A stretch of 64,000 nucleotides of DNA from Octopus sinensis (Eukaryota). Each line of letters begins with the position of its first letter. Position 1 is the stretch's first letter. The notes beneath the pieces were generated by a model. It was given only the letters and a program-made list of their open reading frames with translations, made no database searches and was not told the DNA's origin. Location: NCBI RefSeq assembly GCF_006345805.1, contig NC_043012.1, positions 16,368,001 to 16,432,000 on the forward strand, in the 5' to 3' direction. Of the stretch, positions 491-53,627 are shown in pieces. The position numbers and the translations under genes are program-made.

Positions 491-776
491 GGGTATATAG
501 CGTAGTGGTTATGAGCGCGAGCAACAAACCTCAAGATTCCGAGTTCGATTCCAGGCAGTGACATAAATAATAATAATAATAATAATAACAACAACAGCAA
601 CATCGAAAAATACCTTAGGAATGAGAACCCAGGTTCGAAATCTCCCCAAGACACTTGAAGACTGGAGAGGATATCAGCCGAAATGATGTGTTAACAACAA
701 ACAAGATGAGGACAGGACAAATATCCCTCAAATTTAAATAATGTACATAATTCCTCATCTCTTAAATATAGAACTG
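491..776 (+). mobile_element. tRNA-headed SINE with hammerhead-bearing tail (family H), copy 1, degenerate ribozyme core
   Basis: A-box-like TAGCGTAGTGG, B-box GAGTTCGATTCC, internal (AAT)n, then a tail matching 10425-10636 and 11531-11985. The core reads ACAC-TTGAAG-ACTG...CAGCC-GAAAT-GAT-GTGTT (deletion in CTGATGA). Confidence 0.8.
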
Positions 777-1629
777 AATAGTAATCATCTATTTCCCATC
801 GCTCTAGAGGCCCCAGTATCGATTTTTTTAAAACTCTAAGTAGCCTATATTCAGGTCTGGGATATGAAGCAGCTGTGTTTAAATTTTTTAAAGAAATCCG
901 ATGAAAGATGAAGCAGTTATTGAGGTACATTATATTTTCGTATACATACACACACACACACACGTATACAGAAAACTTCAATTTCATATATATATACTTT
1001 ACCTACTCTAAAAAAAAATTTTAAACATGGAAGAAAATTATGTCTCCTTGTTTGGATCGATCTGCGCGATCATCCGAACTAATAATGGTAAAGTTTCTTT
1101 AAACTCAACATCGAAGCGCAAGTTTTTTATATGTGTCCGAGTTAGGCTAGAGACAAAATAGAGTGAATCGATTCAACAGTTTAACCTTCTATGTATGTGA
1201 TCTTCTATGTTAGAGTAATGACAGATGCGCTTATGCCTCACACATTCAGTAGAAAAGTCGAAACTAATGTGTTTGCTTTTTGTGTTGCTTCAAGGGCCTT
1301 AAATGGTGCTCTTTGTTGTTTCGTGGCAACACTGGAATTAATAATTTGTGTGCTGAGATAAAAAAAAAAAAACAGGGAGTGATGTTTTGATTGTTGAAGA
1401 ATTTGCATTTCGAGAACTCTTAAGATTGTTGATAAACGGCGAAATCTGTAGGATTAAGTCGGAATTTATATCTTCTGTGTATGTAAAGAAAAATACAAAA
1501 GGAATTTATTTTGGCGAGAAGTCTTTGCAGTAGCTAATCTGTCTGTTTGGTGGAAGTTCTTCGGTGGTGCTGTGTGTATGTTTGACTTTCATTTTATTTC
1601 TGTATCGTTCTTTATCATTTAAGTTTCAT

Positions 1630-1864
1630 TTACTCTTACTCTTTACTCTTTTACTTGTTTCAGTCATTTGACTGCAGCCATGCTGGAGCACCGCCTTTAG
1701 TCGAGCAAATCGACCCCAGGACTTATTATTTGTAAGTCTAGTACTTATACTATCGGGGACGTAAACACACCAGCATCGGTTGTCAAGCGATGTCGTGGGG
1801 GGGGGACAAACACAGACACACAAACACATACACACATACATATATATATATATATTATATATAT

Positions 1865-1906
<42 letters not shown>

Positions 1907-2071
1907 TACGACGGGCTTCTTTCAGTTTCCGTCTACCAAATCCACTCACAAGGCTTTGGTCAGCTCGAGGCTATATTAGAAAACACTTGCCCAAGGTGCC
2001 ACGCAGTGGGACTGAACCCAGAACCATGTGGTTGGTAAGCAAGCTATTTACCACACAGCCACTCCTGCGCC
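1630..2071 (-). mobile_element. SINE family A (tRNA-derived head, CORE-like GGCACCTTGGGCAAGTG, central TA/CA microsatellite, GTAAAAGA tail)
   Basis: Matches many copies in the window (2372-2775, 38172-38578, 43527-43993, 58896-59305 and others). Confidence 0.9.
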
Positions 2072-2371
2072 AGGAATTTGGCAATTTTTATATGGCGAAT
2101 GCTACATCCCTGACATACACGTTCTCAATGAAAGAATCCTGAGATACTTTCGGATGGAGACAATCACGTTTGTTGCACTTTATGCATAAGTATTTGGTAT
2201 TAGGGCTAAGAACTCTCTATTTATGACAATATAACAAAAATCGGGCGAATGCAACGTTATACATGACTTGTTGCCTCCAATTAAGGCTTTTAGACTATAA
2301 CAGTTTAGAGCAGTTTACAAATTTCATTCCAGGACCTTATTTGTTTAATGGAAACCAAGCTTGGGTATATA

Positions 2372-2775
2372 GGTGCAGCCGTGGCTGTGTGGTAAGAAGC
2401 TTGCTTCCCAACCACATGGTTTCGGGTTCAGTCCCACTGCGTGGCACCTTGGGGCAAGTGTCTTCTACTATAGCCTCTGGCTGACCAAAGCCTTGTGAGT
2501 GAATTTGATTGACGGAAATTGAAAGAAGTCCGTCGAATAGGCATGTGTGTGTGTGTGTATGTGTGTTTGTGTCTGTGTTTGTGCCTAGTACTGCTTGACA
2601 ACCGATGTTGGCGTGTTTACGTACCCATAACTTAGCGTTTCGGCAAAAGAAACCGATAGAATAAGTACCAGGCTTAACAAAATCGTAAGTATTGGGGTCA
2701 CTTATTTCGACTAAAAGTTCCAGGCGGTGCCCCAGCATGGCCGCACTCCAATGACTGAAACAAGTAAACGATAAA
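2372..2775 (+). mobile_element. SINE family A
   Basis: GTGGCTGTGTGGTAAGAAGCTTGCTTCCCAACCACATGG head through CCAGCATGGCCGCA...AATGACTGAAACAAGTAAA tail. Confidence 0.9.
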
Positions 2776-2793
2776 ATATATATATATATTCAC

Positions 2794-2825
<32 letters not shown>

Positions 2826-2829
2826 ATAC

Positions 2830-2918
<89 letters not shown>

Positions 2919-2926
2919 CACTATAT

Positions 2927-3110: not shown

Positions 3111-3648
3111 ACTACAATTTATTGGTGGTGTGTATATCCTTGTTCGGACTTTTACATAATTACTTCCGCCCGTTTATTTAATATCGTCCCATGAGAGTGT
3201 ATGACGAGCCCAGAGTTACAATAGATATGACTTAACCATCGTATTACGTCTGTGAGTCGGTATCTCAACACTGAGAAGTGAACCTCTTAACCATCGGCCA
3301 TAACATCCATTATCGTAAGCAATATTTTGGGCTTAAGCCTTTTCCTCGTCAGTTGTCAGCGTATTTTCTTTTACCTCTTCTTTTACTTGGTTCAGTGATT
3401 GGACAGCAGCCACTCTGGCGCTGCCGCCTTAAGGGATCTAGTCAAACAAATCGCGCCCACTACTTACTTTTAAAATCTGATACTTATTTTATCAATTTCT
3501 TTTACCGGTTCCACTAGATTACAAGGACGTAAACAAACCTACCCCGATTGTCAAGATTGTGGGAGACAAAGACAAAGGCACACACAACTTCATACATACA
3601 TACGAGTATATATACTTTAATAATAAAACTGAAAAATCTTCACAAAAG

Positions 3649-3686
3649 CTGTTACTCGGAGTTTCACGTTCCTGTTCGTCGGACAG
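3649..3686 (-). ncRNA. Minimal type-I hammerhead ribozyme motif (left arm of palindrome)
   Basis: Reverse complement CUGU-CCGACGA-ACAGGAACGU-GAAAC-UCCGA-GUA-ACAG. Stem I is CUGU/ACAG; U4C core variant; stem II damaged. Confidence 0.65.
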
Positions 3687-3700
3687 TTTCTCAACCAAAA

Positions 3701-3737
3701 CTGTCTGACGAACGGAAACGTGAAACTCTGAGTAACA
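3701..3737 (+). ncRNA. Minimal type-I hammerhead ribozyme motif (right arm of palindrome)
   Basis: CUGU-CUGACGA-ACG(GAAA)CGU-GAAAC-UCUGA-GUA-ACA: canonical core, GNRA-capped stem II, GUA cleavage triplet, stem I UGU/ACA. Confidence 0.8.
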
Positions 3738-4419
3738 ACAGTTTTTGTGATGTTTTTTGAAACTTTATTGATAATGCATATTACTCTACCTCCGGTATTC
3801 GAGTACTGTTTCCACCTTGGTTTACATTTATGCGCTTACTCACAAACATACACGATGGAATTCCACATAGTTTCCAGCTATCAAATTCACTCATGTTACT
3901 TTGGTTGACCCAGGGGTTATAGCAAAACACACTTTGCACGAGGCCCCGTGCTCTGGCACTGTACTTGAAACCACGTCTTTGACAAGCGAGCTTTTCTTAT
4001 CCACACAACCATTCCCTGCGCTTAATTTTACATCTTTGTCCGTTTAATATCAATACAACCTATCGTTTTAATATCTGTTGCTTAATAGGTGCTGGCTGGC
4101 TGGCTGGCTGGCTGGTTGGTTGGTTATTCAGCTGTCTGGTTGGCTGGTTGGCTGATTGGCTGATTGGCTGGTTGGCTGATTGGCTGATTGGCTGGTTGGC
4201 TGGCTGGTGGGTTGGCTGGCTGGTTGGCTGGTTAACTGGTTGCTTTCTATCCTTTCGTTCGTTCGCTGCTCTTATCAGCTGCTTTCTGCATACATGTTTT
4301 ACCAGTTGGAAATTCGAGCTTTTAATAACTATTAATCTAATAAATTAAATTATCATATACATACAGCAATTCCCTTCGGATGGTATCTTAATTTTCCTCT
4401 GTGTTTTTATTACTGGCGT

Positions 4420-6679: not shown

Positions 6680-6862
6680 AAATTTACAGAAAAACAAAAG
6701 ACGAAGACAGGTGTATATAAAACAAGCATGTGTATAAGTTTAACGCTCGGGAAGGTGAGAAAGTCTTTTACGTTTCGAGCCTACGCTCTTCAACAGAAAG
6801 GAACTCGAGGAAATAAACAGAGAGAGAGAGAGAATAAAAATAAGCTTTAGTGGCCATCGATT
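6680..6862 (-). mobile_element. Short non-coding Penelope-end/retrozyme-like element containing a hammerhead
   Basis: Abuts (TA)n. Related copies lie at 53985-54140 (ribozyme deleted) and 51750-51970. Confidence 0.6.
6765..6800 (-). ncRNA. Minimal type-I hammerhead motif (A6U core variant)
   Basis: Reverse complement CUUU-CUGUUGA-A-GAGC(GUAG)GCUC-GAAAC-GUA-AAAG. Stems I and II are perfect; stem III is reduced to palindromic ACGU. Confidence 0.7.
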
Positions 6863-7412
6863 AATAATGTATCTAGCTTCGCTCTTTTCTTTCTTTTCAC
6901 TTTAACCCAAAGAAGATGGCTGCTTCTGTTAATTCACGATAAAACCAAAATCTTTTCAACGTGATGGCTGAAATTTCAGTATGAGGATGATGGGATTGGT
7001 GATGCGACTAAAATGTGAATGGTTCTTAACATGAGCAGAAACTTCTTGTTCTTTTATGTTGTTGAGGTCGTCGCCATTATTATTGATGATGATGATACTG
7101 TTTAACCCCCGTCACGGACCCGGTGACAGGCGTACAAGCCAAATCCAATTTTTTTTCCAGTTACTTACAACTATGTTATACATTATCCATTGTGTGTATG
7201 TTTCTTTAAGTTTTCTTGACAATGATTTAAATGAGATCTGGTTTTTATTTCTAGCAGAACCAGCGACCACATAGAGGCATTCACTTCGGCTCTGCTTGCG
7301 GTTTCGGCTGTTCATCGAGAACCTATCTAAGACGCGAGAGTCTCCCCCTCGTTGCTCGTTGTTCTTGTTGCTGTCGCTACATCTGCTATTGTTGTTGTTG
7401 GTGCTCTACCCG

Positions 7413-7847
7413 CATGGTTCTTGGTCTCAAGAATTTGTCTTATGAAGAAAGGCTGAAGACGCTCGACCTTTATTCTCTAGAAAAACGACGACGCCGTGGT
7501 GATCTCATTCTTGCTCACAACATCATAAGCGGAAAGTGTAACCTCTCGAAAGAGCTGTTCTTCACTCCTGCTCCAGAGCGTGGGCTGCGGGGTCACTCCG
7601 AAAAGCTGTATCTGCGACGATTTCATCTCAATCGAAGGAGAGGGGCTTTCTCCGTCCGGGTTGCGGATCCGTGGAATAAGCTGCCGGACGAGATGGTGAA
7701 GATGCCGACGACCACTCGGTTCAAAGTCTCCTTTGACCACAAGTGGCCTGAACTCTTTACATGAACACCACCCTGTACATAACTCCATGTCTCCCGACAT
7801 AGCCTTGCTTTTTGCTTTTTGAGCCAAAAAATTAACTAACTAACTAA
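7413..7847 (+). mobile_element. CR1-like LINE 3' fragment (ORF2 C-terminus, 3' UTR, (TAAC)n tail)
   Basis: ORF 7414-7764: GLKNLSYEERLKTLDLYSLEKRRRRGDLI...RGHSEKL...FSVRVADPWNKLP, typical of the CR1 ORF2 C-terminus. Confidence 0.9.
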
Positions 7848-10337: not shown

Positions 10338-10459
10338 CAGTGGTTCTCAACCAATTTTTGCTTATGGCTCCTTATGACTCTAATTTTACTCGGGTGGACC
10401 CTCATAATTATTCCATGTTTAAAAAACCCCAAGATTCCAAGTTCGATTCTAGGCAGTGA

Positions 10460-10531
<72 letters not shown>

Positions 10532-10771
10532 CAACAACATAGAAAAATACCTTAGGAATGAGAACTCAGGTTCGAAATTTCCCCAAGACATCTGATGAAA
10601 CAAGATCAGGACAAATATCCGTCGAATGTAAATAATTAGCAACTGTATTTAAAAATTGTTGAAATATTTTGTGTTTCGTAGAAATAGAATCAATTTACTG
10701 CATATAAACTTTATCAACAAAATTTCATATGAAACCCCCAGGGTCATATGGGCCTCGGTTGAGAACCACTG
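10338..10771. mobile_element. hAT-superfamily MITE with 15-bp TIRs and 8-bp TSD, carrying a nested family-H SINE
   Basis: TIRs CAGTGGTTCTCAACC (10338-10352) and GGTTGAGAACCACTG (10757-10771); identical GTCTAAAA flanks at 10330-10337 and 10772-10779. A degenerate second copy lies at about 50665-50895. Confidence 0.9.
10425..10636 (+). mobile_element. Family-H SINE copy 2 (5'-truncated, 3' half of ribozyme deleted)
   Basis: AAGATTCCAAGTTCGATT...(AAT)n...CCCCAAGACATCTGATGAA joined directly to ACAAGATCAGGACAAATATCC. Confidence 0.8.
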
Positions 10772-11365: not shown

Positions 11366-11582
11366 TAGAAGGGCTGAAAATGTAAGAATTGTACTTGGTT
11401 TACGTTTAAGTGCGTTGTTTCTGAAAATAAACATCATATCATCCCTCTGAACATCCAGCATCTTTGACAATTATTTGACTCATAGTGAGTGTAAATTTTT
11501 GTTAGACCTATAAACATATATACTCCTGTTTATTTACATTATTTATATTTGATGGATATTTGTCCTCATCTTGTTTGTTGTT

Positions 11583-11629
11583 AACACAACGTTTCGGCTG
11601 ATATACTCTCCAGCCTTCATCAGGTGTCT
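11583..11629 (-). ncRNA. Minimal type-I hammerhead ribozyme inside a SINE
   Basis: Reverse complement GACAC-CUGAUGA-A-GGCUG(GAGAGUAUAU)CAGCC-GAAAC-GUU-GUGUU: canonical core, 5-bp stems I and II, palindromic AACGUU in place of stem III. Confidence 0.85.
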
Positions 11630-11681
11630 TGGGGAGATTTCGAACCTGGGTTCTCATTCCTAAGGTATTTTTGCGATGTCA

Positions 11682-11900
11682 AGGCGGCGAGCTGGCAGAA
11701 TCGTGAGCACGCCAGGCGAAATGCTTAGCGGTGTTTCGTCTGCCGCTGCGTTCTGAGTTCACATTCCGCCGAGGTCGACTTTGCCTTTCATCCTTTCGAG
11801 GTCGATAAATTAAGTACCAGTTGAGTACTGGGGTCGATGCGATCGACTTACCCCTTACCCCAAAATTTCAGGCCTTGTGCCTATAGCAGAAAAGATCATT
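11682..11900 (+). mobile_element. SINE family B nested in the (ATT)n tract of a family-H SINE
   Basis: Full head-to-tail match, ending AGAAAAGATCATTATTATT. Confidence 0.9.
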
Positions 11901-12189
11901 ATTATTATTCAGGTCACTTCCTGGAATTGAACTTGGAATCTTGGGGTTAGTAGCCCGCGCTCTTAACCACTACGCCTTATGGCCCTGGTTACGTTTCCGC
12001 AACGCAAAACCTGCTCCTACTTGTTTGGATATGAACTCACCGGGAAGCATCTGACTGACCATACGAACTGTTCCGTAGGTTGCATACCGTCCTTCGCTTC
12101 CAGATTGTGAAAGCTTACCATAACGTTTAATCTAAATAGAGTGGAATTTTAAGGCTTTTAAACAGAATCTGTGTGTGGAAGAGAGTGCG

Positions 12190-24845: not shown

Positions 24846-25028
24846 TATATATAATAATAATAAATATTAGGGAATGAATCCAAAATTACAGGGAAAAATC
24901 AGATTTAGGGTTAAATCCAATTTTATAGTAAAATATATAATATAATTCGAGACAAAACCACTATTTTAAAACCAAACAAGGAAAGACTTAATCAATACAT
25001 AAAATTTTAATATAAATTAAATAAACCG

Positions 25029-25072
25029 CCACTACAAATGTTTCATGTCTGCTACCGACAATCTTCAGGTGG
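25029..25072 (-). ncRNA. Type-I hammerhead motif
   Basis: Reverse complement CCAC-CUGAAGA-U-UGUC(GGUAGCA)GACA-U-GAAAC-AUUU-GUA-GUGG: canonical core, 4-bp stems I and II, 2-bp stem III with a tetraloop. Confidence 0.8.
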
Positions 25073-26759
25073 ATTTTCGATCTAAAAATATCAATATTTT
25101 AAAATATAATTTAAAATAATTTATAATAATAAAATAATAAAATTATCAATGAAAGAATATAAAAAAATAAAAATATAATCTATATATAATCTATATATAA
25201 TCTATATATAATCAATATATAATCTAAAATAATCTAAAATAAACCCTATAAACAATTGAATATAAAAACCTATTATAAAAGTTCTCATATTTAAAAATGC
25301 ACAAAAACCAAAAAACAACAAGCAAAAACCAAAAACCAAAAAACAAAAAACAAAAAACAAAAAATAAACTATATATACACACACATGCTCATACCCTCAA
25401 CACATTACTTATTCATACTTCCTCACACACACATACAACACTCAATTCATAAACAATATACATATACCCGCTCACACATACATATACATACACATACATA
25501 CAGAACACGATATATACCAATATATAAACACCCACACCCATACAGATAAATAAATTACGCAAACAATCACACACACACACACACACACATTCACACATAC
25601 ATAAACACTCAAAAGAAAACCGAACAATTCTTTGCACGTGGATATCAAACGTTTTAAAAAAATTTATGAATGGAAATGAAATCCATACATACAAGTATAA
25701 ATATAACTATACAACCCCTAACACAATACACACAAATACACACACATATATACACACACCCACAAACTTAACCATATACACACTCACACATACATATACA
25801 TACGTACAAGTCTCGATACAAACAAACTTTAATAAAACGACCATGATAAACGAAAACTCATATATATATTAATATATATATAAATAAAAGAGTGTGTACA
25901 CGCAGACGGGTGCAATCAAACGCACATTCAAAACTTACATGTATACAAGTGCATAAATAATCACACCCAATTACATAGCACTCATACACTCCCACATCTA
26001 CACTTACACTTGTACACTCTCACACATACATATACACCCATACCTACATACAAAAATTCTTATTAAAATAATCATGATAAATAAAATCCGTACATACAAG
26101 TATAAATATAAAGATACAACCCCTTACACAATACACACAAATACACACACATATATACACACACCCACAAACATAACCATATACACACTCACACATACAA
26201 ATACATACGTACAAAACTCGATACAATCAAATACGCACACGCACACACATTCACACATACATAAACATACAAAAGAAAACAACATTTCTACACATAATAC
26301 GATATATAAAAAATACTCCATAAGAAATCAGATTATCATAAGTAACAAGATTAACAAAGGAGAAAATTAGACATACCTTCTAATCAGTATCAAATTTTGA
26401 ATGAATAACTCAATCCGTTATTACAATAAACAAAATTACGTTACCATGGAACCGAACATATAAAAATTACTAGCGCGCTACGTAAAACAGCGTCTTTAAA
26501 ATTATGAATGGAATATAAAATTCTTTGCGCGTAGTAAACAAACTTAAATTTAAAAATTATGAATGGATATACAAAACTTTCTACAAATTCTTTAAAAAAA
26601 CCATAAAAAACGAAAACTCATATAGATATTAATATATATATTAATTTTTAAAGTATTTGTAGAAAGTTTTGTATATTCCATTCATATTATGTGTAGAAAT
26701 GTTGTTTTTCTTTTGTATGTTTATGTATGTGTGAATGTGTGTGCGTGTGCGTATTTGCT

Positions 26760-27122
26760 TGTAAAGGGGGAAACAGATAAGGTTTATCCGTGGAAAGAGA
26801 AGCCTACGGAAAAGACCACGGTAGCCTCGGCCAATAATGTCACATGCTAACACATTTATTTGTAAGTAACACTCTGTTTTAAATTTTTCCGGGTTCATAG
26901 GATTATGCTCATTCATACGTGCCATCCTTGCTACATTCACCCATCTTTTTTTGAAACATTCTTGCCTCTCTACTCTCACTTTCCTTTTCAAGTGATACTT
27001 GATGAAGTTGATAAGAGATTGACTAAAGAGGAAAGTGTTGGTCTCTAATCCTTTCAGACGCGTCCACCAGATAGATTATTTCGCCATAGCCACAAGTATG
27101 ATGAAAATGGTCCTTCCTTCTT
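26760..27122 (-). mobile_element. Tx1/L1-clade LINE fragment
   Basis: Homologous to about 62735-63120; the 5' junction abuts (GATA)n. Confidence 0.85.
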
Positions 27123-27296: not shown

Positions 27297-29349
27297 CTTG
27301 AGATCATGTAGAGAGTACCTTTGTCACTTTAGTGTATGTGCGTGCGTGTGTGTGTGTGTGCGTGTGCGCGCGCGCGTGCGTGTGCGCGTGATTTTCGCTT
27401 GTGATTGTTTGCATATGTTCATGACATGAACATAAAATGGAGATTCCATTTACAGATTTTCACTGTACCACTAATCGATTGTATTTGAAGGATGCGAATC
27501 TTTTTACTTTGTTCTTTTGCAAAGATTCCCACCATTTCTAGGCTTTTATGCAAATCTGTGGTTACACAGCCAAATGTAAAAGTCATAAGTACAAATTAAA
27601 AAAATCTATTCAACCTGAATATAAGAGCTGTAGCTTTCTCATTAGTTCACCATAACTGTTCTCTTTTCCCCCCAGATGTCAATGAGACATTTACCTCTGT
27701 TGAGCACCTAAACCTCTTGTGGCAAAAGGCCAGGCTGATGGAAACAATCGTTAAATGCAAAATATATGTCAGATCCACTGACTACGAGCAGCACATTTTT
27801 TACGAACCCCACTGCAGTATCCTACCCTTAATGTGGTGCAGTGGCTTGTTTGCCTTAATGACCCACAGAACAATTCCAACAGAGTATAAGTCAAGTTTTT
27901 GGTAAGGCCATCCATGCTGAGCACGTTAAAGGATAGAGAACAGACTATATTGGATCACGTTTTCCCACAAATAAAAATGGCTTTGCGTAGGATCAACATC
28001 ACTAACTAAAAAAAGAAAGTAAAGTTACAGAAATATCGATGACAATTCAAAACCACAAAGACTGGGAAGAGGCAAGAAAGTCAAGAAGAGTGGAGAAAAG
28101 CTCTCGATGTCCTGGGCTCCATAAAGAGTGAAGTTGCTAAGTAACTAACTATGTGTTCTCTTTCTCTTTTAAATTTTGACGGCCACCAGCTTGGTAGCAA
28201 GGTTGTGAAGGAAAGCATCTTGAATCGTTCATTATCCTTTAAAGATTAAGAAGGTCTTGGACCTTTTTATCGTGCCAGATATTGTGATCATTTGTAGTGT
28301 ATGAATTAAGGATTTGCGTCCTCTTCCCCAAGAACCCAAATTCAGGTTCACTTTGCTCCAAACGAGTTGGTACATACGTACAAGCAAGGTAGGCATGCAT
28401 GTGAAAAAGAAAGTTGCTCAGCCTGCTAGAAACAACAAGCAAAGATCAATCAAAGAACACCTTACAACTTTAAAGAAGAAGGATGCCTTTGTTGTCAAGC
28501 TTGTGACAGTGGAGACCTACGGCTTTCTTGGTCCCCGGACTACATCCCTGCTATTCAGAGATGGCTATTCGCAAGTGCGAGCCCCATCAGTCTCTTTCGC
28601 CATCCTCCAGAGCAACGCCTTTCCCATTTTGTCCGCCGGGCCCGCGAAACGTGTATAACCGTTGTCTCTCTTAAGACTACAAATAGGAAAAGCATTTTCC
28701 AACTTATCTATTGATGTTAATATTATATAAGTGCAGAAGACAGAATGGAGGAACGAAAATTCATGTCAAAGACGTACAATTGCAAGAGCAGTACACATGT
28801 CATTTAAATCGGTTCAATATATAAACAATAAAGTAAAAGATGCCATGCAATTTCTTTCTTTCTCTTCACAGCCTTTATTTAATATCAGGTGACTAATTTA
28901 TTTTATCAAATGATAATAATTATCTTCACTTAAATGTGGATGTTCTCTTAGAGCAAACTTTACTGCGGTACACACTTTGCTGCTGTTGATACCATGAGAG
29001 AAACTTGCATAATGGCATTTGGTCCAAAACGCACTTTTTTATTATATCGATAAAGGGGAGATAAAACCTCGCCACGTCCAGCACCGAGGCAACCAGATCG
29101 CTGATTTCGACCTACCTTGGTCCTTTCAATGTTGCTGGAGGCTTATCTCTCCGGTGGCGATACAAACGAGAGAGCATTTTACAGCAAAAAGCTAATACGA
29201 ACGTGTTTCTCGTGATATCTACCGCAGTATAGTTTATTCTGACAGAACATCCACGTTTAAGCGGGGATGGATATTACGTCGCAGGATCAATACTGACTCT
29301 GTCACTAACACATATTTTTCAAATGGTTTTCCCGTTACGTCATTCAATG

Positions 29350-34334: not shown

Positions 34335-34360
34335 AGATAGATGATAGATATACAGACGAC

Positions 34361-39722: not shown

Positions 39723-40483
39723 GCACATATATATACACATATACATACGTGCATGCATACTTATGCATGCAAGTACGCGCGTGTATAATATAGAGAGAGA
39801 GAAAGAAAAAGAAAGAGAGAAAGAAAGAAGGAAAGAAAGAAAGAAAGAAAGAAAGAAAGAAGGAAAGAAGGAAAGAAAGAAAGAAGGAAAGGATGAAAGG
39901 AAAGAAGGAAGGAAAGAAAGAAGGAAAACAAAGAAAGAAATGAAGGAAACAAAGAAAGGAAGGAAGAATGGAAGGAAGGAAGGAAGGAAAGGGCAGTATC
40001 AATAGGTGTTACATTTGAGTAAAGCAATTTCGGTAAGTAAAAGTGATATGTTTCATGACTCGGAGTGGCGCAAAAACACGTTAGTTGGTCGGTAGGATGA
40101 CTTCCTGTCAATGGGAATTAAACGAACGTGGAAAAACGACGATGTATACACCAGGCAAAAGAAATATTGTATACTAAGCTCAAAGTTACTAAGCAGGATG
40201 TCTATATGTCCCCGTGAGTATTCTACTAATCAGCCACTGTTAAAGTAAATAGTTATTATATATGTGTATGTGTGTACTATATATATATATAAGATTAATC
40301 AGCCGAAATTGCTAGGATGATCGGTTCTTGACTGAAGATGAAGGATTCGAATGTCCCGTCCGTGTTTTTTGTATCGTCTTCTAAATGTTTTACGTTCTTG
40401 TCCCAGTTTGTATTTTCTACATATAATCTATATATAATATATATATATATATATATATCTATATATATATATATATATATATA

Positions 40484-40524: not shown

Positions 40525-40532
40525 ATATATAA

Positions 40533-40676
40533 TAAAAAAAAAGAGTAACCACTATGTGATCGACTCTAGCACTAAAAAAGATCCGCTAGGTTTCAGCCAC
40601 AAAGAATTGTTTCCGATGAAAGTTAGCACGACTACTAGCGCAAGAGTCGACCACATAATGGTTACTCTCTTTTTTT
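40533..40676. repeat. Inverted repeat (~40-bp arms) with split hammerhead-like pieces in the spacer
   Basis: GAGTAACCACTATGTGATCGACTCTAGCACTA / TAGCGCAAGAGTCGACCACATAATGGTTACTC. The spacer has CCGATGA-A-AGT..ACT (+) and CTGAAACCTAG (-). Confidence 0.75.
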
Positions 40677-40781
40677 ATGTATAAATTTATCGTAATCCAT
40701 GTTTTTATGCACTAAGCCACTTAGTGTTTAATGGATGTACTATTAAATTAGTATCCAATTTTCTCCACCTTATTAGTTGAT

Positions 40782-40858: not shown

Positions 40859-41016
40859 TAGTAACAGAGACAGTATTAATACCGACGTAGCTACTTAGAC
40901 GTGAATGTTCCGTTAGAACAAACTATACTGCGGCAGATACCACAAGAGAAAGTTCCACTCTGGATTTGGTACAAAATGCGGGGAGATAAATCCTTGCCAT
41001 CTCCACGACTGAGAGC

Positions 41017-41059
41017 ACCAGAACATGTGGTTTCGACCTTCCTTGGTCTCGTCAATGAT
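41017..41059 (-). ncRNA. Degenerate type-I hammerhead motif
   Basis: Reverse complement AUCA-UUGACGA-GACC(AAGGAA)GGUC-GAAAC-CACAU-GUUC-UGGU; C3U change and one extra nucleotide at the cleavage site. Confidence 0.6.
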
Positions 41060-41209
41060 AGACGTCCGACTGCTAGAGACAGCAGCGATTCATACCCCGC
41101 CCATGATATATAGAATTATAGTGCCAGAACAGGCGCTGGTGTCGCGATTAGCCAGTGAACTTCTTAACATACATACGTACATATATGTATATATATACAT
41201 ATGTGTGTG

Positions 41210-41264: not shown

Positions 41265-41270
<6 letters not shown>

Positions 41271-41428
41271 ACAATAACCTTTGGATGGAATTTAGAAATA
41301 TTTAATACATCGCTACGCGGTGCGTTTCCACAAATCATATGTCTCGTAAGTTCATGTGATTTGTGAAAACGCGCGTAGCGATGTATTAAATGTTTCTAAA
41401 TTCCATCCATGGATTATTGTTATTATTA
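41265..41428. repeat. Near-perfect hairpin (~76-bp arms, 11-nt loop) carrying the 3' half of a hammerhead
   Basis: GGATGGAATTTAGAAATATTTAATACATCGCTACGCG / CGCGTAGCGATGTATTAAATGTTTCTAAATTCCATCC; contains GAAAAC-GCGC-GTA. Confidence 0.9.
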
Positions 41429-41444
41429 CTATATTTATTCTACA

Positions 41445-41812: not shown

Positions 41813-41987
41813 ATATTGGTACAGCTCGATGCAACCTCAAAACCTATAGTTAAGCTCCAGGTTCAGTGATTATGCGAAAGAGTAGTCCAACGTAGGTCAT
41901 ATATAAGCATGCATATATATATTAAAAAATTAACAGTATGAGATAAAAATCCAAGGATGTGAAAGACTTCAGAACATTGATAAATAG

Positions 41988-42035
41988 GTCTTGCAGCTGT
42001 TTCCGGGATATTTTATATAGCCCTTCATCAAAGAC
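41988..42035 (-). ncRNA. Degenerate type-I hammerhead (left arm)
   Basis: Reverse complement GUCU-UUGAUGA-A-GGGCUAU(AUAAA)AUAUCCC-G-GAAAC-AGCU-GCA-AGAC. Confidence 0.6.
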
Positions 42036-42245
42036 GGTGTGAGAAGATGGTTAAGCAATAGTTATTCTAGATAAGATATGAAATAGAGAGTGATGTGGAG
42101 GAAGGAAAATAGAAGTGAGATATTCAGGGATATTGTACCTGTAGATCCATTATTTTGGCAGAATGGTATACATATAAGAATCCTGTAATTTGTGAGTAAG
42201 TTCCAATAGTATTTAAATACTATTGCTTAACCATCTTCTCACACC

Positions 42246-42293
42246 GTCTTCGATGAAGGGATATATAAAATATCCCGGAAACAGCTATAAGAC
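42246..42293 (+). ncRNA. Degenerate type-I hammerhead (right arm)
   Basis: GUCU-UCGAUGA-A-GGGAUAU(AUAAA)AUAUCCC-G-GAAAC-AGCU-AUA-AGAC: 7-bp stem II and palindromic AGCU loop III. Combining both arms implies an ancestral GUA triplet. Confidence 0.65.
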
Positions 42294-42469
42294 CTATTTA
42301 TAAATGTTCTGAAATCTTTCACATCCTTGGATTTTTATCTCATACTGTTTATATATATAATATGATATGTGTGGCAATTAGTCAGTTGCCATAATAAAAC
42401 TCAGAGTTTTGGAAGTCGAGGCGGAGCTATGAGAGTGACTGTTAAATAAAATATATAAAAAATATATAA

Positions 42470-42905
42470 AACTATAAAAATATATATATGTAAGGAATGA
42501 ATTGTTTGTACGTGGACACAATATAAAAAGCAGGTTCTATCTGTGATCTTGGGGGGAACCAAAAATGTAACAAATATTTAGCCATATGTGAACATGGTCC
42601 AAAAAGTTCAGTTCTGGAATTTAGACATGTAGCGGTGTCTAAGCTGCTTTTCTAGATGAGCCATTTTTCCATATCACAAAGACCACACTTCCTACTTGTG
42701 GTATGGAAAGATGGCTCATCTGGAAAAGCAACTTAGACCCCAATACATGTCTAAATTCAAGAACTGAACTTTTTGGATCATGTCCACATATGGCTAAATA
42801 TTTGTTACGCTTTTGGTCCTCCCATGATCACAGGTAAAACCTGTTTTTTATATTGTGTCCACGTACAAGAATTTCATTTCTTACATATATATTTTTATAT
42901 TTTTA
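42470..42905. repeat. Long fold-back (~210-bp arms, 16-nt loop)
   Basis: ...GATGAGCCATTTTTCCATATCACAA (to 42679) versus TTGTGGTATGGAAAGATGGCTCATC... (from 42696); pairing continues to the AT-rich ends. Confidence 0.92.
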
Positions 42906-43347
42906 CATATTTATATATATATATATATTTTTATATAATTTATTGCTTTATATATTTTTATACATTTTTCTGTACGTTACCTTTCACCCTGCATATTTGT
43001 ATATGTGCGTATAGGGACGTGTATATGAACATAATTGTGCGCGTATAGTATATATACGTGTGTGTGTGCGTGTGTGCGGGTAAGTATACATGTGTATGGA
43101 TGCATGTATATGTATACATATAAGTATGTGGGTGGGTGTGCACGATTGTGTTTCACGTGAGTGTGAGTGAGCATATGCATATATGCACATGCATGTGGGC
43201 GTACGTGTGCGCATGTGTATCTATGTGTGTACATGCGCGCACACGCGGATTCTATGAACGTGGGTTTACTTTTTCGAGTACTTTTACTTTTTCCCTATTC
43301 GAGTAATTTCCCTTTATTTAACATTTTCATAGCATTTTTGTTTGTCT

Positions 43348-43410
43348 TAATAACTGACGAGATGCCGGAGTAGACGTCCGCTCCGATATCCGAAACACTG
43401 AGTTTTATTA
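43348..43410 (+). ncRNA. Type-I hammerhead motif with long stem II
   Basis: UAAUAA-CUGACGA-GAUGCCGGAG(UAGACGUCCG)CUCCGAUAUC-C-GAAAC-ACUGA-GUU-UUAUUA; 6-bp stem I. Its 3' half recurs inverted at about 42365-42426. Confidence 0.75.
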
Positions 43411-43526
43411 TGGCAACCAAATAATTGTCACATATTATAGATAAATTCCTCTATTTACATAATAGTGAAGTCTCATTCATGCTTTTGTTCTCATATTAAC
43501 ATGATTAATATATATTTATATATAAG

Positions 43527-44540: not shown

Positions 44541-46091
44541 GAAAGAATTATTCACCAACGAAGACTATAGCTAGTTTCCTCGAATCCAACTGTTTTACTA
44601 AAGCAATATTGACTTTTCTATACATCTAGTGTTCTTAGAGACCTACATATACTTTGAAAGTCGTTCCAAGTTTTCACAATCACAACCGGATGTGAAAATG
44701 AAAATAAAAAAAACACTCTACATATGCTTTTTATTGCATTGAAAAATTTGCTAAATCAGATAAAAAAAAAAAGACGTTTCACTGATATATTGCAGACTAA
44801 GTTGTATCAGCATTCGTTCGTTAAAACTCACGTGTTTTATAAGCAGACTTTGCTAAGAGAGTGTTGCTGATTGTTGTTGTTGCTGATTGTTGTTGTTGCT
44901 GTAGTTGTTGTTGCTGTAGCTGCTGCTGGTCTTGTTACTGCTACTACTAAGGCCTTGTTGTTTAGCGCAACGTGGAGACGAATAATCCGACGTGATTTCA
45001 GACATAGTACGTCTTGAACTACATGTGCCCTGCTTTGTTTAAAACGGAAGGAAGTCCTTTTAGGGAGCTCTAGCTGATACATTGCTTTATCTACCATATT
45101 CAACAACTGCCATAAGACATCTCTTTTAATAGTCAGAAATCAGGAGGTACTTCCGGTCTTTGTTTTATTGTCTATTTTTGTTTTTTGTTTTTCTTAAATT
45201 AAATATACTAATCAACAAAGAGACATTCTGTATCTCATTCTGAGGAAACAATAGAAAAATAAAGTGCCTGATTCTCTTCTGCAGGCTGGCCAACGCATAG
45301 AAAAAGAAACGATTTACCTTAGGTACACCTCAGCTACAGTACATACGGTTAAAAGCTTGAAAACACCCGTTGCTCACACTTGGCCGTCTTCCATCTTTCT
45401 CTTCCTCACGTGATCATCCTTCTTTTCTTTCAGGACTGTCGTAATGACAGCACGTATCCTATCTCTCTCTTCTATTTTTTTCTCTTGTCAAAGAAAATAT
45501 TTCTCCAGTGTTCGCTATTTTACCCTCGCTCTGGTCTAACGACCCTCCATTTTAGCTTTCGTTCGGTTTCCTTCTATGTCTCCACTGTCCTGTTTTTGTT
45601 CCTAACTTCGACCCTCCATAAGTCCCAAGTTTTATTTTGGCAGTTATGGGAGCAACTGTCTTCAAAGACTCTATTGTCATTAAATGCTCGAAATGAAGAA
45701 TAGACAGACAGTTGACAATTGAGGAAGTGTCGTTCTTTATGTTACTTGTCCTGTTTTCCATTTGTTTCTCTCGTTATTTGCGTATTGAACTAATTTGTTT
45801 TCATATTTCATGTTGTTTACTGTTTGTGACGTCCCGTACCCATATATACATACGTATGTATATATATAATATATATATATATATATTATAATATATATAT
45901 ATATATATTATATATATATATATAGATATATATATATAGTCTATACATATATATATATATATATTTCTTTATATGAGTTCGTGTGTTGAAGCATATTCTA
46001 TTGTGTCTGGGGAGAGTCATTTTCTTTTTGTGCCTCACCGGTAAAATTTACTCACCGGTAAAATTTCCACGTTTTTCTTATTTTTATTGTC

Positions 46092-46128
46092 CTAAAATTT
46101 TCGTTGCGTCTTGCAACCTTTTCAATAG
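46092..46128 (-). ncRNA. Minimal hammerhead motif with U3:A8 core covariation
   Basis: Reverse complement CUA-UUGAAAA-G-GUUGC(AAGAC)GCAAC-GAAA-AUUU-UAG. Confidence 0.6.
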
Positions 46129-46305
46129 TTTTGACTTTCTTATGAATTAACACCGAAATTGGGACCAATACGGTTATAACGGAATTTTTTTAGAAATTTC
46201 TATCGGCATGTTCCGAGATGCATAAATTATAATGGTTATTGACAATTTTGTATTTTTTTCGGCATATTTGGCATTAGAATTTTTCCCTTTACCTTATTTT
46301 ATAAG

Positions 46306-50914: not shown

Positions 50915-51316
50915 TAATTCTTTTCTACTCTAGGCACAAGGCCCGAAATTTTGGAAGAGGGGGTCAGTCGATAAGATCGCCCCTAGTACGCAACTCGTGC
51001 TCAATTCATCGACCCCGAAACCATGTAAAGTAAAGTCGACCTCAGCGGAATTTGAACTCAGAACGCAAAGGCAAACGAAATGCCTATTTCTTTACTACCC
51101 ACGAGGGGCTAAACACAGAGAAGAAAAACAAGGACAGACAAACGTATTAAGTCGATTACATCGACCCCAATGGGTAACTGGTACTTAATTTATCGACCCC
51201 GAAAGGATGAAAAGCAAAGTTGACCTGGGCGGAATTTGAACTCAGAACGTAACGGCAGACGAAATACGGCTACGCATTTCGCCCGGCATGCTAACGTTCC
51301 TGCCAGCTCGCCGCCT
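50915..51316 (-). mobile_element. SINE family B, dimeric subfamily
   Basis: Inverse match to 9047-9452. Confidence 0.88.
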
Positions 51317-51638
51317 TAAAGATTTTAATTATTGGCTGTGTAATTAAGCAATTGTCTTAGAAACGGTCTAGCTTCAGGTTCAATCCCACCGCATTGCAGA
51401 TTGGGTGATTTTCTTGCTCGTAAATGATCTTGAGTTGAGGTTGACCATTAATAACCTTTGTGAGTGTAATTCGGTAGAGAGAACCAGGATAGAAGACTGT
51501 CTCCAAGAGGGCGTTTTCACTTCCTAAATGCTCGGATAATATCAGTTGATTGAAAATGATCAACTCACTATACTATATATGGGAGACCCGACCATATTTG
51601 TATTGTGTTTGGTAAAACAATTTCTTGAGATAGTTTTC

Positions 51639-51689
<51 letters not shown>

Positions 51690-51716
51690 ATACACACGCA
51701 CATATACGTATGTATG

Positions 51717-51749
<33 letters not shown>

Positions 51750-51751
<2 letters not shown>

Positions 51752-51970
51752 GTACATTTATATACGGTCACTTGGTCACTTGAGCAATATAACTATACAA
51801 GTGCAGTTGGCGATTTCTTTTCCTTCTTTGGACTTTTCCCTTTCTATTTTCCGACGAAGAGCTATGCTCGAAACGTCAAACTCTCTTCTCAACGAGCGTG
51901 AACCTAATACATTCCTTGTGCCCGTCCTCTTGTTATCCATTTGCTGAAGTGACCGTATATAAATATACGT
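51750..51970 (+). mobile_element. Short hammerhead-bearing element with ~30-bp inverted ends
   Basis: ACGTACATTTATATACGGTCACTT..GAGCAA / TTGCTGAAGTGACCGTATATAAATATACGT. Confidence 0.75.
51848..51880 (+). ncRNA. Minimal type-I hammerhead motif (U4C variant)
   Basis: UUU-CCGACGA-A-GAGC(UAU)GCUC-GAAAC-GUC-AAA; GUC triplet. Confidence 0.7.
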
Positions 51971-52210
51971 TTAGCCCATCGTATATGTGTCTGTATTTGT
52001 GTTTGTGTCTGTGTTTGTCACCCCAACATCGCTTGACAACCGATGCTGGTGTGTTTACGTCTCCGTAACTTAGCGGTTCGTCAAAAGAGACCGACAGAAT
52101 AAATACTAGGCTTACAAAGAATAAGTCCAGGGGTCGAATTGTTCGACTAAAGGCGCTGTTCCAGCATAGCCGCAGTCAAATGACTGAAACAAGTAAAAGA
52201 ATATATATAT

Positions 52211-53112
52211 AGCACCACCTTATACAATTATCTAAATCCTTTTTGAGTAATGTTTTATGGTATTATGGTCCATTCAAGTAGTGAGTTCTTGTTGGGTGAG
52301 TAGTATCCAGGTATAGGTGGCTTATCTGGTATTCCTTGAAGAAATTTGTCCAGACTCCGTTTAAAGGTGATGGGATCTTTTTTCCTCTTTGATCAGTTTC
52401 GGGACAATGTTAAACAGGGCAGGGGCTGTTGAAGAAAAGAAATTGTGTCGCAGTGTACCTATATGTTGTGATCCTAAATTGGGCAGGGAACTATGGTCCT
52501 TGGTCCCAGCCTTGGATGAACATTGAAACTAATGTACAGGTCGTTTGGGCAATGCTGGCAGTATATTCTCCACAACGTGCAAATGATGTACCGCTCGCGG
52601 CGGCCTGGAGAGAGTAAAGTTTCAAGGCTTTAAGGCGGTCCCAGTAATCGAGATCAGTCATGTCCTTAATTCGTTTAGTGAATGGCCTCTAGGGTTTTCA
52701 ATTTACGAGATGTTTTGTTTGTATGGGAAGTCCACAGAGGGCAGCAGTATTCGAGGTGTGGCCGTACAAAAGAGGAGAAAAGTGGAATGATGACACCTTG
52801 TTCTCTGGACCGGAAGGCTCTTAAGATCCAGGAGCTCATGCTACGAGCTATATCGACCGTATTGTTGATGTGGGCACTCCAACTGAGATTGTTATCATCA
52901 ATTACACTTAGGTCTCTGATATTATTTTATGCTTTGAGCGGTTCCCCTGAAGGAGGTATATATTTCTTCCAAAATGCATCAGCTCAAATTTTCCCTCGTG
53001 TAGATGCATTTTGTTTTTGTCTGTCCATTGATTCATCGCATATAGATCAGACTGGAGTTGAGTTCGACCTTCTTCATTGAGGATTTTCTGGAGTTTAGTG
53101 TCATCAGCAAAG
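52211..53112 (-). mobile_element. CR1/L2-like LINE ORF2 3' fragment (pseudogenised)
   Basis: Minus strand reads FADDTKL (53092-53112), RDLSVIDDNNLSW, FVRPHLEYCCPLW, YWDRLKALKLYSL and FKRSLDKFLQGIPDKP. Confidence 0.9.
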
Positions 53113-53357
53113 TGCCTTTAATTAATTAATCAATTTATATCAGCCTGACAAACCTAAGTACATTCCAACAAATGGACAGTGTCATATAATACGTCGACGT
53201 AATTCATGGATAACCTCGGTGTGTTTTCACTCACCACATGGTCTATAAACGGTCTATAATAAGAATTTCTCCTCATATACAGTCATCTGAGCGAAGGTCT
53301 TTCCCCGTTAGCAATGTTCACGATCATGAACCCTAACACACACATATATATATATAT

Positions 53358-53627
53358 AGTATTAATAAAGTAGGGTATGTGTATTAGACTCTTATTAAGT
53401 ACAACACACGTTTCGACCCATCGTTTCTTGTGTCGGCTTGCTGCTAGATTTTTCTTTGCTTCATTCTTTCTCCAATTTCATGGACATATAGAAACAAGCA
53501 AGCCGACACAAGAAATCTCTAGTGAGACTTTTTATTGATGTACCCGAAGAGATCCAGAACGAGGGGTCGAAACGTGTTGTATTTAATAAAGTCTCATACA
53601 CATACCCTCTCCTACGTTATTAATACT
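53358..53627. repeat. Nested inverted repeats around a hammerhead
   Basis: Outer arms at 53358-53425 and 53558-53627; inner arms TTTCTTGTGTCGGCTTGCT / AGCAAGCCGACACAAGAAA. Confidence 0.88.
53540..53582 (+). ncRNA. Type-I hammerhead motif (U4C variant)
   Basis: GUAC-CCGAAGA-GAUCC(AGAACGAG)GGGUC-GAAAC-GU-GUU-GUAU. The inverted copy preserves GAAAC-GUGU-GUU-GUAC. Confidence 0.7.

What the first reader, a model, noticed from the sequence alone, without database searches (positions are those of the whole stretch)
491..53627. Dense population of minimal hammerhead ribozymes spread over many unrelated short non-coding repeat families
Seen: near-complete type-I hammerhead layouts at 3649(-), 3701(+), 6765(-), 11583(-), 25029(-), 41017(-), 41988(-), 42246(+), 43348(+), 46092(-), 51848(+) and 53540(+), plus halves at 649, 10586, 40612 and 41364. 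Stem I and II sequences differ completely between families yet still pair, while the core boxes are kept. Stem III is 0-2 bp, often with a palindromic centre (ACGU, AGCU, GCGC, AAUU). Known: such helix-III-deficient hammerheads mark Penelope-like element pseudo-LTRs and animal non-LTR retrozymes, and cleave as dimers. Inference: this genome hosts a large, diverse and probably unannotated ribozyme-bearing mobilome (roughly one motif per 5 kb here), with no coding Penelope element in the window.
Basis: partly seen in the sequence, partly recalled or inferred. Interest (0 to 1): 0.9.

Follow-up and report, generated by a model that had tools for sequence, protein, structure and literature searches.

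The report
Penelope retroelement hammerheads, one tRNA-headed
The tiny 'hammerhead' RNA motifs are really here and in tens of thousands of places across this probably octopus genome, as end-pieces of short repeats (four families tied directly, the rest likely, to Penelope-like jumping genes, a known arrangement); most copies are decayed and likely cannot cut, but one family starts at a tRNA-like head that likely drives its own copying and another spread to over 13,000 copies with a changed catalytic letter.

Summary
Observation confirmed: all 12 near-complete motifs lie at the stated places; of four 'halves', one (649) is nearly whole, two are halves, one (40612) is misread. Enrichment is real: 20 descriptor hits in 800 kb of blind genome sample against 1-2 in shuffles; 14,312 against 363 control pattern matches genome-wide. 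They are pseudo-LTR ends of Penelope-like elements (PLEs): four families are tied to PLE coding sequence (Poseidon-type, two Hydra-type, one other GIY-YIG), most show divergent inverted pairs and two fixed 3' ends; one family is a tandem non-LTR retrozyme. This class is described in print, and this scan has noted it before in shark-like and other genomes. The window is richer than average (about one intact motif per 40 kb, not per 5 kb) and holds a 65-residue endonuclease remnant. Only 4 of 12 window copies keep the canonical core; none has a same-sense partner nearby. Not found in the papers searched: a tRNA-like head inside a PLE 3' UTR at which about 80% of copies begin (probable PLE-mobilised SINE), and family-wide core changes (A6U in 13,148 exact copies; U4C in four families). 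No RNA or cleavage data.

The parts
482..790 (+). Family A copy: tRNA-like head (about 490-562), (AAT)n, hammerhead 650-692 with two core letters deleted, 3' tail
3604..3689 (-). Family 3705, short arm of a divergent inverted pair; hammerhead 3645-3689, CCGACGA (U4C, the family state), helix II broken
3691..3800 (+). Family 3705, long arm; hammerhead 3697-3745, canonical core letters, 3-nt duplication in helix I; pair folds as one long hairpin
6680..6860 (-). Family 6796 short element; hammerhead layout 6765-6800 with CUGUNGA core (A6U, the family state)
10425..10640 (+). Family A copy, partial head, 5' half of hammerhead (core box at 10592), internal deletion
11500..11990 (-). Family A copy: head 11916-11990, interrupted by an unrelated abundant repeat (about 11680-11900), intact canonical minimal hammerhead 11583-11628 (ACGU centre)
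24870..26763 (-). 5'-truncated 3' UTR/pseudo-LTR of a young Hydra-type PLE with a short inverted end (26645-26763); intact hammerhead 25029-25072; ends in (TA)n/(TAGA)n
29055..29134 (-). Second, more decayed solo copy of the tandem retrozyme-like family
40531..40678 (.).
40941..41110 (-). Solo decayed copy of the non-LTR retrozyme-like family; hammerhead 41016-41061 (helix I 6 bp, helix II 4 bp in the family)
41266..41440 (.). Inverted pair of 3' halves (41309-41334 -, 41360-41382 +) of a family with ACGCGCGU helix III and a roughly 100-nt helix II insert
41929..42345 (.). Family 42246 divergent inverted pair; hammerheads 41988-42035(-) and 42246-42293(+), both decayed from the family's CCGAUGA core
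42367..43480 (.). Family 43354 divergent inverted insertion: half hammerhead 42392-42417(-), Hydra-type endonuclease C-terminal remnant 42520-42714(-), hammerhead 43348-43410(+) with canonical core
45966..46140 (-). Family 46092 short copy; intact hammerhead 46092-46128 with U3-A8 covariant core and AAUU centre; begins at the family's common 5' end
51775..51990 (+). Family B 210-bp element; hammerhead 51848-51880, CCGACGA core (family state), helix I only 3 bp
53358..53700 (.). Family 53544 divergent pair: 3' half 53399-53419(-) and hammerhead 53540-53582(+) (copy-specific U4C; family core canonical)
54001..54066 (-). 3' fragment of family 6796 without the hammerhead

Best explanation
These are hammerhead-bearing ends of short retro-copies, four families joined directly to Penelope-like coding sequence and the others likely derived from such elements, plus one tandem retrozyme-like family; the dispersed copies are likely inert, and the hammerhead likely cuts only as a slow, two-copy (dimer) ribozyme in the tandem parent transcript. 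Shown: motifs, families, fixed double 3' ends, divergent inverted pairs, (TA)n flanks in most families, links to RT/GIY-YIG frames. Inferred from PMC11167929, PMC3846280 and PMC4209133: the PLE protein nicks AT-rich DNA and starts reverse transcription inside the RNA at one of two sites just past the hammerhead (giving the optional tail); the cDNA stops early or runs off the RNA's 5' end, and snap-back priming makes the inverted second arm. Where 5' ends pile up (family A at its tRNA-like head, family 46092 13 nt before the core, the 210-bp B group 70-85 nt before it) the template was most likely a short RNA starting at an internal promoter, so these behave as non-autonomous mini-elements; in family A that promoter is probably a tRNA-type (Pol III) one. 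Family-wide core changes (A6U, U4C) suggest that in several families the fold is kept for recognition by the PLE protein while cutting is weak or lost.
For: Family A: a natural 300-aa frame (YVDD, thumb, GIY-YIG end) and an RVT_1 hit (E 3e-8) lie upstream; in 25 ORF-selected loci the head follows on the same strand in 23 and the hammerhead in 21; 127 homologs carry RVT_1 and the same unnamed Pfam accessions, some GIY-YIG PF01541. Family 25068: three hammerheads in direct tandem, two followed by an ORF with DKT, CxCx5C, GIY-YIG, CxxC and CxH, the Hydra-clade marks of PMC8557442 section 11. Family 43354: Hydra-type endonuclease end directly upstream in L160/L161/L183, L170 and in the window. Family 46092: shared 1.6-kb upstream with a GIY-YIG frame, best E 4e-8. 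Neighbouring copies are divergent inverted in 30 of 34 pairs (A), 31 of 33 (3705), 17 of 18 (42246), 8 of 9 (25068), 14 of 18 (43354), 5 of 5 (53544), 9 of 9 (46092), but direct in 14 of 14 for family 41055 (periods 278-370 bp). Two 3' ends per family. (TA)4 within 260 nt downstream in 16 of 16, 28 of 29, 22 of 27, 33 of 42, 13 of 16 copies of five families vs 628 of 3,040 background windows. Helix III segments are palindromes or near-palindromes that pair with a second copy and not alone in 12 of 12 families. Head step: exact 16-mers number 10,130 (before the hammerhead), 6,479 (mid-head), 1,253 (63 nt further up, outside the head), 803 (ORF); loss per 100 nt 0.41, 2.61, 0.23. 22 of 31 held head copies start within -7..+8 of the tRNA +1, including 7 with no inverted arm and 6 whose other arm ends elsewhere (one of the 7 is an alignment miscall of a longer copy). 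A box 21 of 24, B box 18 of 24; relaxed ARAGORN of 24 vs 0-1 in shuffles; colinear about 60% match to this genome's tRNA-Arg(UCU), z 7.3, best of 20 tRNAs of 6 isotypes. 9 of 12 head-to-end copies lack TTTT, while six other families hold it in 2/2, 7/7, 30/38, 37/37, 19/20, 13/15. A6U: 13,148 exact 29-nt matches, 99 of the first 100 with U, 1 with C, none with A at position 6. U4C is the commonest state in four families.
Against: No PLE link was shown for families 3705, 42246, 53544, 41364 or the B group: 1 of 30, 3 of 30, 0 of 15, 0 of 12 and 0 of 20 loci had any PLE hit, against 14 of 80 blind 10-kb stretches; family 40612 has 1 of 15. The local Pfam copy gave no hit on the Hydra-type frames or the 300-aa frame and PDB none. 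The B group is almost never inverted (1 pair in 41 loci). Families A, 46092 and 41055 do not show (TA)n flanks (3 of 52, 7 of 30, 4 of 15). The head is not called a tRNA by Rfam or by default ARAGORN. A short palindrome lies at the head's 5' edge and such palindromes mark pLTR 5' ends elsewhere (PMC3846280). Sharp 5' ends also occur in families with no tRNA head (2,902 vs 756 matches 16 nt apart in family 46092). Top-hit loci are biased to the query, and 16-mer counts were not corrected for unequal conservation (13-20 of 25 loci held each). Single-strand folding returns the hammerhead shape for few window copies. No RNA ends and no cleavage data.
Confidence: 0.85

Rival explanations
1. The pile-up of family A 5' ends at the head is not a Pol III start: reverse transcriptase stalls or snaps back at the palindrome there, or a Pol II internal promoter happens to start there; the tRNA-like piece is an old passenger insertion in the PLE 3' UTR.
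For: Palindrome at the head's edge in the master; pLTR 5' palindromes, self-priming and Inr-like motifs in rotifer PLEs (PMC3846280); internal TATA-less promoter in D. virilis Penelope (PMC2377424); sharp 5' ends in head-less families; (AAT)n after the head looks like a captured SINE tail.
Against: Solo and asymmetric copies also start at +1 (13 of 22); A and B boxes kept and T4 avoided only in this family; no free-standing head without the PLE end among 11 head hits of the blind sample, apart from one weak hit to another repeat.
Confidence: 0.45
2. Most motifs are an actively self-cleaving ribozyme population in host transcripts, with variant cores rescued by dimerisation or protein.
For: U3-A8, U4C and a U10.1-U11.1 mismatch are tolerated natural variants (PMC3088659); the Anolis PLE hammerhead cleaves when its protein is present (PMC11167929); family 25068 is 98-100% identical and tandem; mussel retrozymes of similar period make circular RNAs (PMC7229834).
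Against: Copies are solo or on opposite strands; an inverted pair folds into a -87.7 kcal/mol hairpin that hides the motif; CpG decay hits the core boxes; 8 of 9 Xenopus dimers did not cleave (bioRxiv 2026.07.22.740005); single min-HHRs showed no cleavage (PMC4209133).
Confidence: 0.1
3. The hairpin-shaped and (TA)n-flanked short elements are MITEs or ordinary SINEs, and the hammerhead layout is a by-product.
For: Family 3705 copies are near-perfect hairpins; B-group elements have both ends fixed and no PLE link.
Against: Arms diverge from a variable junction and end at two alternative 3' points; helices I and II pair within but not across 12 families; four families with the same layout are joined to PLE frames.
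Confidence: 0.07
4. Chance matches in a repeat-rich, AT-rich genome.
For: 1 of 7 window descriptor hits and about 3 of 20 sample hits look like chance.
Against: 39- and 56-fold over reversed-pattern controls genome-wide; 20 vs 1-2 in shuffles.
Confidence: 0.01

Closest known systems
Minimal type I hammerheads (min-HHR) of metazoan PLE pseudo-LTRs (Cervera and de la Pena 2014, PMC4209133; Lunse et al. 2017, not held)
   Same: Type I layout, short helix I, palindromic 15.2-16.2, extra nucleotide before helix II in several families, U3-A8 covariant family, many solo and opposite-strand copies, few full PLEs; limpet and oyster examples are in the supplement.
   Different: Family-wide U4C and A6U cores, non-G-C pairs at 10.1-11.1, and 38-100-nt helix II inserts were not seen in the parts read; density about 25 per Mb.
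Penelope/Poseidon-type PLEs (Anolis PAc, PMC11167929)
   Same: Family A: MGSPLSP and YVDD RT motifs, C-terminal GIY-YIG, hammerhead in the pLTR, two 3' ends; an Anolis protein is among the homologs.
   Different: A tRNA-like head and (AAT)n lie between the stop codon and the hammerhead, and most copies begin at the head. Clade placed by motifs only; no tree was built.
Hydra-clade PLEs (Craig et al. 2021, PMC8557442; Hydra-1_Obim listed for O. bimaculoides)
   Same: Families 25068 and 43354: DKT, CxCx5C, CxxC and CxH marks, canonical hammerhead, (TA)n targets.
   Different: Family 25068 has a UTR of about 3 kb (tandem period 5.4-6.2 kb) against elements under 3 kb; RWK not seen as such (IKWK in a shifted frame).
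Animal non-LTR retrozymes (PMC7229834; bioRxiv 10.64898/2026.07.22.740005)
   Same: Family 41055: helix I 6 bp, helix II 4 bp, palindromic helix III, direct tandem units of 278-370 bp, no ORF; mussel units are 350-390 bp.
   Different: Only dimers and one trimer seen, about 80% identical, cores often decayed; circular RNA untested.
Schistosoma Sm-alpha/Sj-alpha SINE-like repeats (known here only through the review PMC6765202)
   Same: Pol III-type promoter followed by a hammerhead.
   Different: Those are tandem repeats with canonical hammerheads; family A is dispersed, has a minimal hammerhead, PLE-type inverted arms and tail, and its head is part of an autonomous PLE's 3' UTR.

Membership tests
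PLE minimal hammerhead | CUGANGA and GAAA boxes with NUH in type I order, helices I and II paired | tested here: met
   12 families; canonical core is the family state in 6 (A, 25068, 43354, 53544, 40612, 41364), U3-A8 in 1
PLE minimal hammerhead | All core letters canonical | tested here: not met
   U4C in families 3705, 42246, B, B'; A6U in family 6796
PLE minimal hammerhead | Helix III absent or tiny and palindromic (dimer-competent) | tested here: met
   8 perfect and 4 near palindromes of 12; no monomer hairpin
PLE minimal hammerhead | Self-cleavage as dimer | not testable with these tools
   no assay; no read data
EN+ Penelope-like element | RT plus C-terminal GIY-YIG frame joined to the pLTR | tested here: met
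   families A, 25068 (RT and EN), 43354, 46092 (EN end)
EN+ Penelope-like element | Coding link for families 3705, 42246, 53544, 41364, 40612, B group | tested here: inconclusive
   no more PLE hits than background within 1.5 kb
EN+ Penelope-like element | 5' truncation, divergent inverted arms, optional 3' tail | tested here: met
   seven families; not met by the B group (solo) or 41055 (direct tandem)
EN+ Penelope-like element | RT phylogeny within PLE clades | not tested
   clades assigned by motifs and homolog lists only
Hydra clade | DKT, CxCx5C linker, CxxC and CxH around E and N, (TA)n target | tested here: met
   L171/L172 frames against PMC8557442 section 11; 16 of 16 copies with (TA)4
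Non-LTR retrozyme | Type I hammerhead in direct tandem units of about 170-400 bp, no ORF | tested here: met
   family 41055: 9 of 20 search loci tandem (three are duplicates of one block), periods 278-370; 0 of 20 with PLE hit
Non-LTR retrozyme | Abundant circular RNA | not testable with these tools
   no read data
tRNA-derived SINE (family A short form) | tRNA-related head with A and B boxes at the 5' end | tested here: met
   not called by Rfam or default ARAGORN
tRNA-derived SINE (family A short form) | No Pol III terminator inside; 3' end shared with the partner retroelement | tested here: met
   9 of 12 copies lack TTTT vs 583 of 2,640 random windows; 3' end identical to the PLE's
tRNA-derived SINE (family A short form) | Pol III transcription shown | not testable with these tools
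   no RNA data
tRNA-derived SINE (family A short form) | Own master lineage, separate from the autonomous partner; target-site duplications | not tested
   the head is also in ORF-bearing copies (23 of 25); no diagnostic-site analysis done

The most novel reading that the evidence does not exclude
A Penelope element captured a tRNA-Arg-like Pol III promoter in its 3' UTR and thereby spawns its own SINE: a 270-330-nt hammerhead-bearing RNA, reverse transcribed and inserted by the PLE protein, in over ten thousand copies. Alongside it, the most numerous short family multiplied with a disabled catalytic core (A6U), which would mean that PLE proteins select the hammerhead fold as a mobilisation signal rather than as a catalyst.
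Probability: 0.45. Interest if true: 0.68.

Novelty: new variant of a known kind. Interest (0 to 1): 0.45.

Why it matters
The basic finding extends a described class to a probable cephalopod, at a high density (about 25 intact motifs per Mb; published counts are 9,000 for Xenopus tropicalis, over 6,000 for a coral, about 5,000 for a mussel). What would matter: what PLE hammerheads are for is open (mutants do not block insertion in vitro, PMC11167929; 'may simply parasitize PLEs', PMC8557442). This genome offers natural experiments: high-copy families with A6U, U4C, U3-A8 and canonical cores, a young 99%-identical tandem Hydra-type element, and sharp 5' ends that predict RNA start sites. A tRNA-headed element mobilised by a PLE would add a partner class to the SINE-LINE rule and may explain some of the many unclassified octopus SINEs.

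Tried and rejected
Rfam: no hammerhead at gathering score and none among the 150 best e-value rows of the window; those rows are microsatellite miRNA artefacts. First strict descriptor missed most copies. Local Pfam and PDB gave no hit on the Hydra-type frames; Pfam names for PF26215 and PF28514 came from no call. Reference L332 lacked the core and L346 had a damaged head; replaced by a profile. Pattern searches for the head's parent tRNA returned only family copies or another repeat. Expression: no RNA holder listed for the young Hydra-type stretch, and no reads were laid, so expression, RNA ends and circles stay open. Window candidates at 36984, 59473, 3352, 18156, 54295 have no relatives in the held loci and do not meet the descriptor; rejected. 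38108 rejected as chance. Type II readings of the 31657 and 40332 families were not supported by alignment folding. No coding parent found for the B group. Papers not held: Lunse et al. 2017 and Ferbeyre et al. 1998; the first may already list U4C or other core variants. Searches behind 'not found in print'; one search was uninformative. Repbase and Dfam could not be searched; bioRxiv supplements and file 1 of the PMC4209133 supplement could not be seen.

Full report
Setting. The window is G000:C16:16368001-16432000 of a 2.72-Gb genome, AT-rich and full of microsatellites. An octopus is inferred from size, about 30 chromosome-scale contigs and the only named close homolog of a local PLE protein being from Argonauta hians; no call names the organism.

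Observation. A strict descriptor found 1-3 window hits. A wider one, tuned on the window, found 7 against 0.05 in shuffles; on 80 blind 10-kb stretches it found 20 in 800 kb against 1-2 per shuffle and 0 reversed, that is about 42,000-105,000 genome-wide before removing chance hits. Exact patterns give 14,312 vs 363 (CUGANGA form) and 9,863 vs 176 (CCGANGA form). Profiles of nine families hit the blind sample 53 times, the shuffled sample never. So the population is real, but one per 5 kb describes this window, not the genome.

Families. Genome searches gave 12-30 loci per family. Helices I and II pair within families (means 4.6 and 4.3) and not across (0.8 and 1.8); helix III segments are 4-9-nt palindromes or near-palindromes that pair only with a second copy. 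Family states of the first box: canonical in A, 25068, 43354, 53544, 40612, 41364; U3-A8 in 46092; U4C in 3705, 42246, B and B'; A6U in 6796; mixed and decayed in 41055. In U4C families the canonical-looking CUGACGA copies most likely arise by CpG decay (inference). Among the 12 window copies, 4 keep the canonical core (3701, 11583, 25029, 43348) and 1 the covariant core (46092).

What they belong to. Family A is the 3' end of a Penelope/Poseidon-type PLE: natural frames upstream carry MGSPLSP, YVDD and a GIY-YIG end, RVT_1 E 3e-8, 127 homologs with RT and in part GIY-YIG annotations; head and hammerhead follow the frame in 23 and 21 of 25 loci. Family 25068 is young (98-100%) and sits in a direct tandem with an ORF bearing the Hydra-clade marks. 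Family 43354 follows a Hydra-type endonuclease end, also in the window at 42520-42714. Family 46092 has a parent with a GIY-YIG frame about 0.7-1 kb upstream. Five families and the B group have no demonstrated coding link. Seven families form divergent inverted pairs with two alternative 3' ends, the architecture described for PLEs (PMC8557442, PMC3846280, PMC11167929); family 41055 forms only direct tandems of 278-370 bp, as non-LTR retrozymes do. The B group (51848, 6765 and B') are solo elements of about 210 bp with both ends fixed, in microsatellites.

How it likely works. From PMC11167929 (parts 1-2 of 4 read): the PLE protein nicks AT-rich DNA and starts reverse transcription at two internal sites near the pLTR-ORF junction; its hammerhead cleaves only with protein and is not needed for insertion in vitro. 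That accounts for the fixed double 3' ends here. Early stops and snap-back give truncated and inverted copies (inferred). A dimer needs two same-sense copies; in the window the nearest same-sense relatives are 10-12 kb apart and broken, and an inverted pair folds into one long hairpin, so these copies are probably inert. Cleavage is plausible in tandem parents such as L171/L172 and in family 41055 arrays; untested.

The tRNA-like head. Between the family A stop codon and the hammerhead lies a 75-nt segment with A and B boxes (21 and 18 of 24 copies), called tRNA-like by relaxed ARAGORN in 8 of 24 copies vs 0-1 shuffled and aligning end to end with this genome's tRNA-Arg(UCU) (best of 20 fetched of 46 listed tRNA matches; z 7.3; all 20 score z 2.9 or more); Rfam and default ARAGORN do not call it. 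Copies pile up at its 5' end: 9 of 11 head hits in the blind sample start at or inside it, 22 of 31 held copies start within -7..+8, and genome-wide 16-mer counts fall 6,479 to 1,253 across 63 nt spanning its start, against 10,130 to 6,479 and 1,253 to 803 over longer flanking intervals. Only this family avoids TTTT on its sense strand. A Pol III transcript mobilised by the PLE fits best; a palindrome at the same edge and sharp 5' ends in head-less families keep a stall or Pol II start alive.

Core variants. PMC3088659 (section 8 and passages) reports U3-A8 and U10.1-U11.1 as active natural variants, U4C as much slower in vitro yet sufficient for a viroid, and A6C as weak. A6U in 13,148 exact copies with no A6 among the first 100 listed suggests amplification without efficient cutting; in folding, the changed core pairs with the GAAAC side to extend a rod. 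This is inference; Lunse 2017 could not be read.

Comparison. PMC4209133 (parts 1-2 of 4, supplement file 2 searched) describes the class, including solo and opposite-strand copies, the U3-A8 family and mollusc examples. PMC7229834 (passages, section 14) gives mussel retrozymes. bioRxiv 10.64898/2026.07.22.740005 (parts 1-3 of 5) derives retrozymes from PLE pLTRs and includes no mollusc. PMC8557442 (passages, section 11, supplement rows) lists Hydra-1_Obim and octopus Naiads. PMC13282606 (part 1 of 3 and a term search) annotates octopus PLEs with no mention of hammerheads or ribozymes. PMC6765202, PMC2377424 and PMC3846280 were read as passages. Searches found no tRNA-headed PLE derivative and no cephalopod hammerhead survey. 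The scan has noted the same class in shark-like and other genomes.

Verdict. A correct catch of a known kind, with two features that go beyond the papers read. Novelty: new variant of a known kind; interest 0.45.

Noticed in passing
window 31560-31860 (inverted pair; boxes at 31657 -, 31747 +) and about 45660-45900: A PLE-like repeat family (inverted pair, T-rich end, TA flank) in which GAAA comes about 25 nt before CUGAUGA, the reverse of type I order; 11 related stretches held. No type II fold supported. May be a Naiad 'HHR half core' as listed for octopus in the PMC8557442 supplement.
   Followed up: partly
window 40295-40420: Second family with GAAA before CUGAAGA, 13 related stretches held, ends in (TA)n; no fold found.
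   Followed up: partly
family 46092 (window 45990-46070; L207, L210): A 48-nt GT...AG intron-like segment follows the hammerhead, then an ATG between the two AC-rich 3' ends, like the 5' UTR intron of D. virilis Penelope.
   Followed up: no
L224, L229, L230 (family of 40612); L314-L320 (family of 41364): Hammerheads with long helix II inserts (38 nt and about 100 nt) that short descriptors miss.
   Followed up: partly
window 3604-3790 and other inverted pairs: Read-through RNA would form long double-stranded hairpins (-87.7 kcal/mol here), likely substrates for A-to-I editing or Dicer.
   Followed up: no
L171-L172 (G000:C4:78074000-78086000): Three-unit tandem of the young Hydra-type PLE with an asparagine-rich stretch between RT and endonuclease; frames are interrupted by frameshifts.
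   Followed up: partly
L185 399-733 and 1219-1557 (just left of the window): Two more Hydra-type endonuclease remnants.
   Followed up: no
window 7255-7764, 52682-53110, 33970-34340, 62300-62900: Fragments that read like LINE reverse-transcriptase ends (label recalled; no Pfam hit for the first).
   Followed up: no
window 36238-36490: Degenerate (TAACCC)-like array of about 37 units inside the chromosome.
   Followed up: no
L387 4862-8898: Open 405-aa and 949-aa frames of a LINE-like element inserted in a duplicated block.
   Followed up: no
L152, L201, L276: Longer forms of family 6796 with an AC-rich upstream region; the short form starts right after an Inr-like TCAGA.
   Followed up: partly
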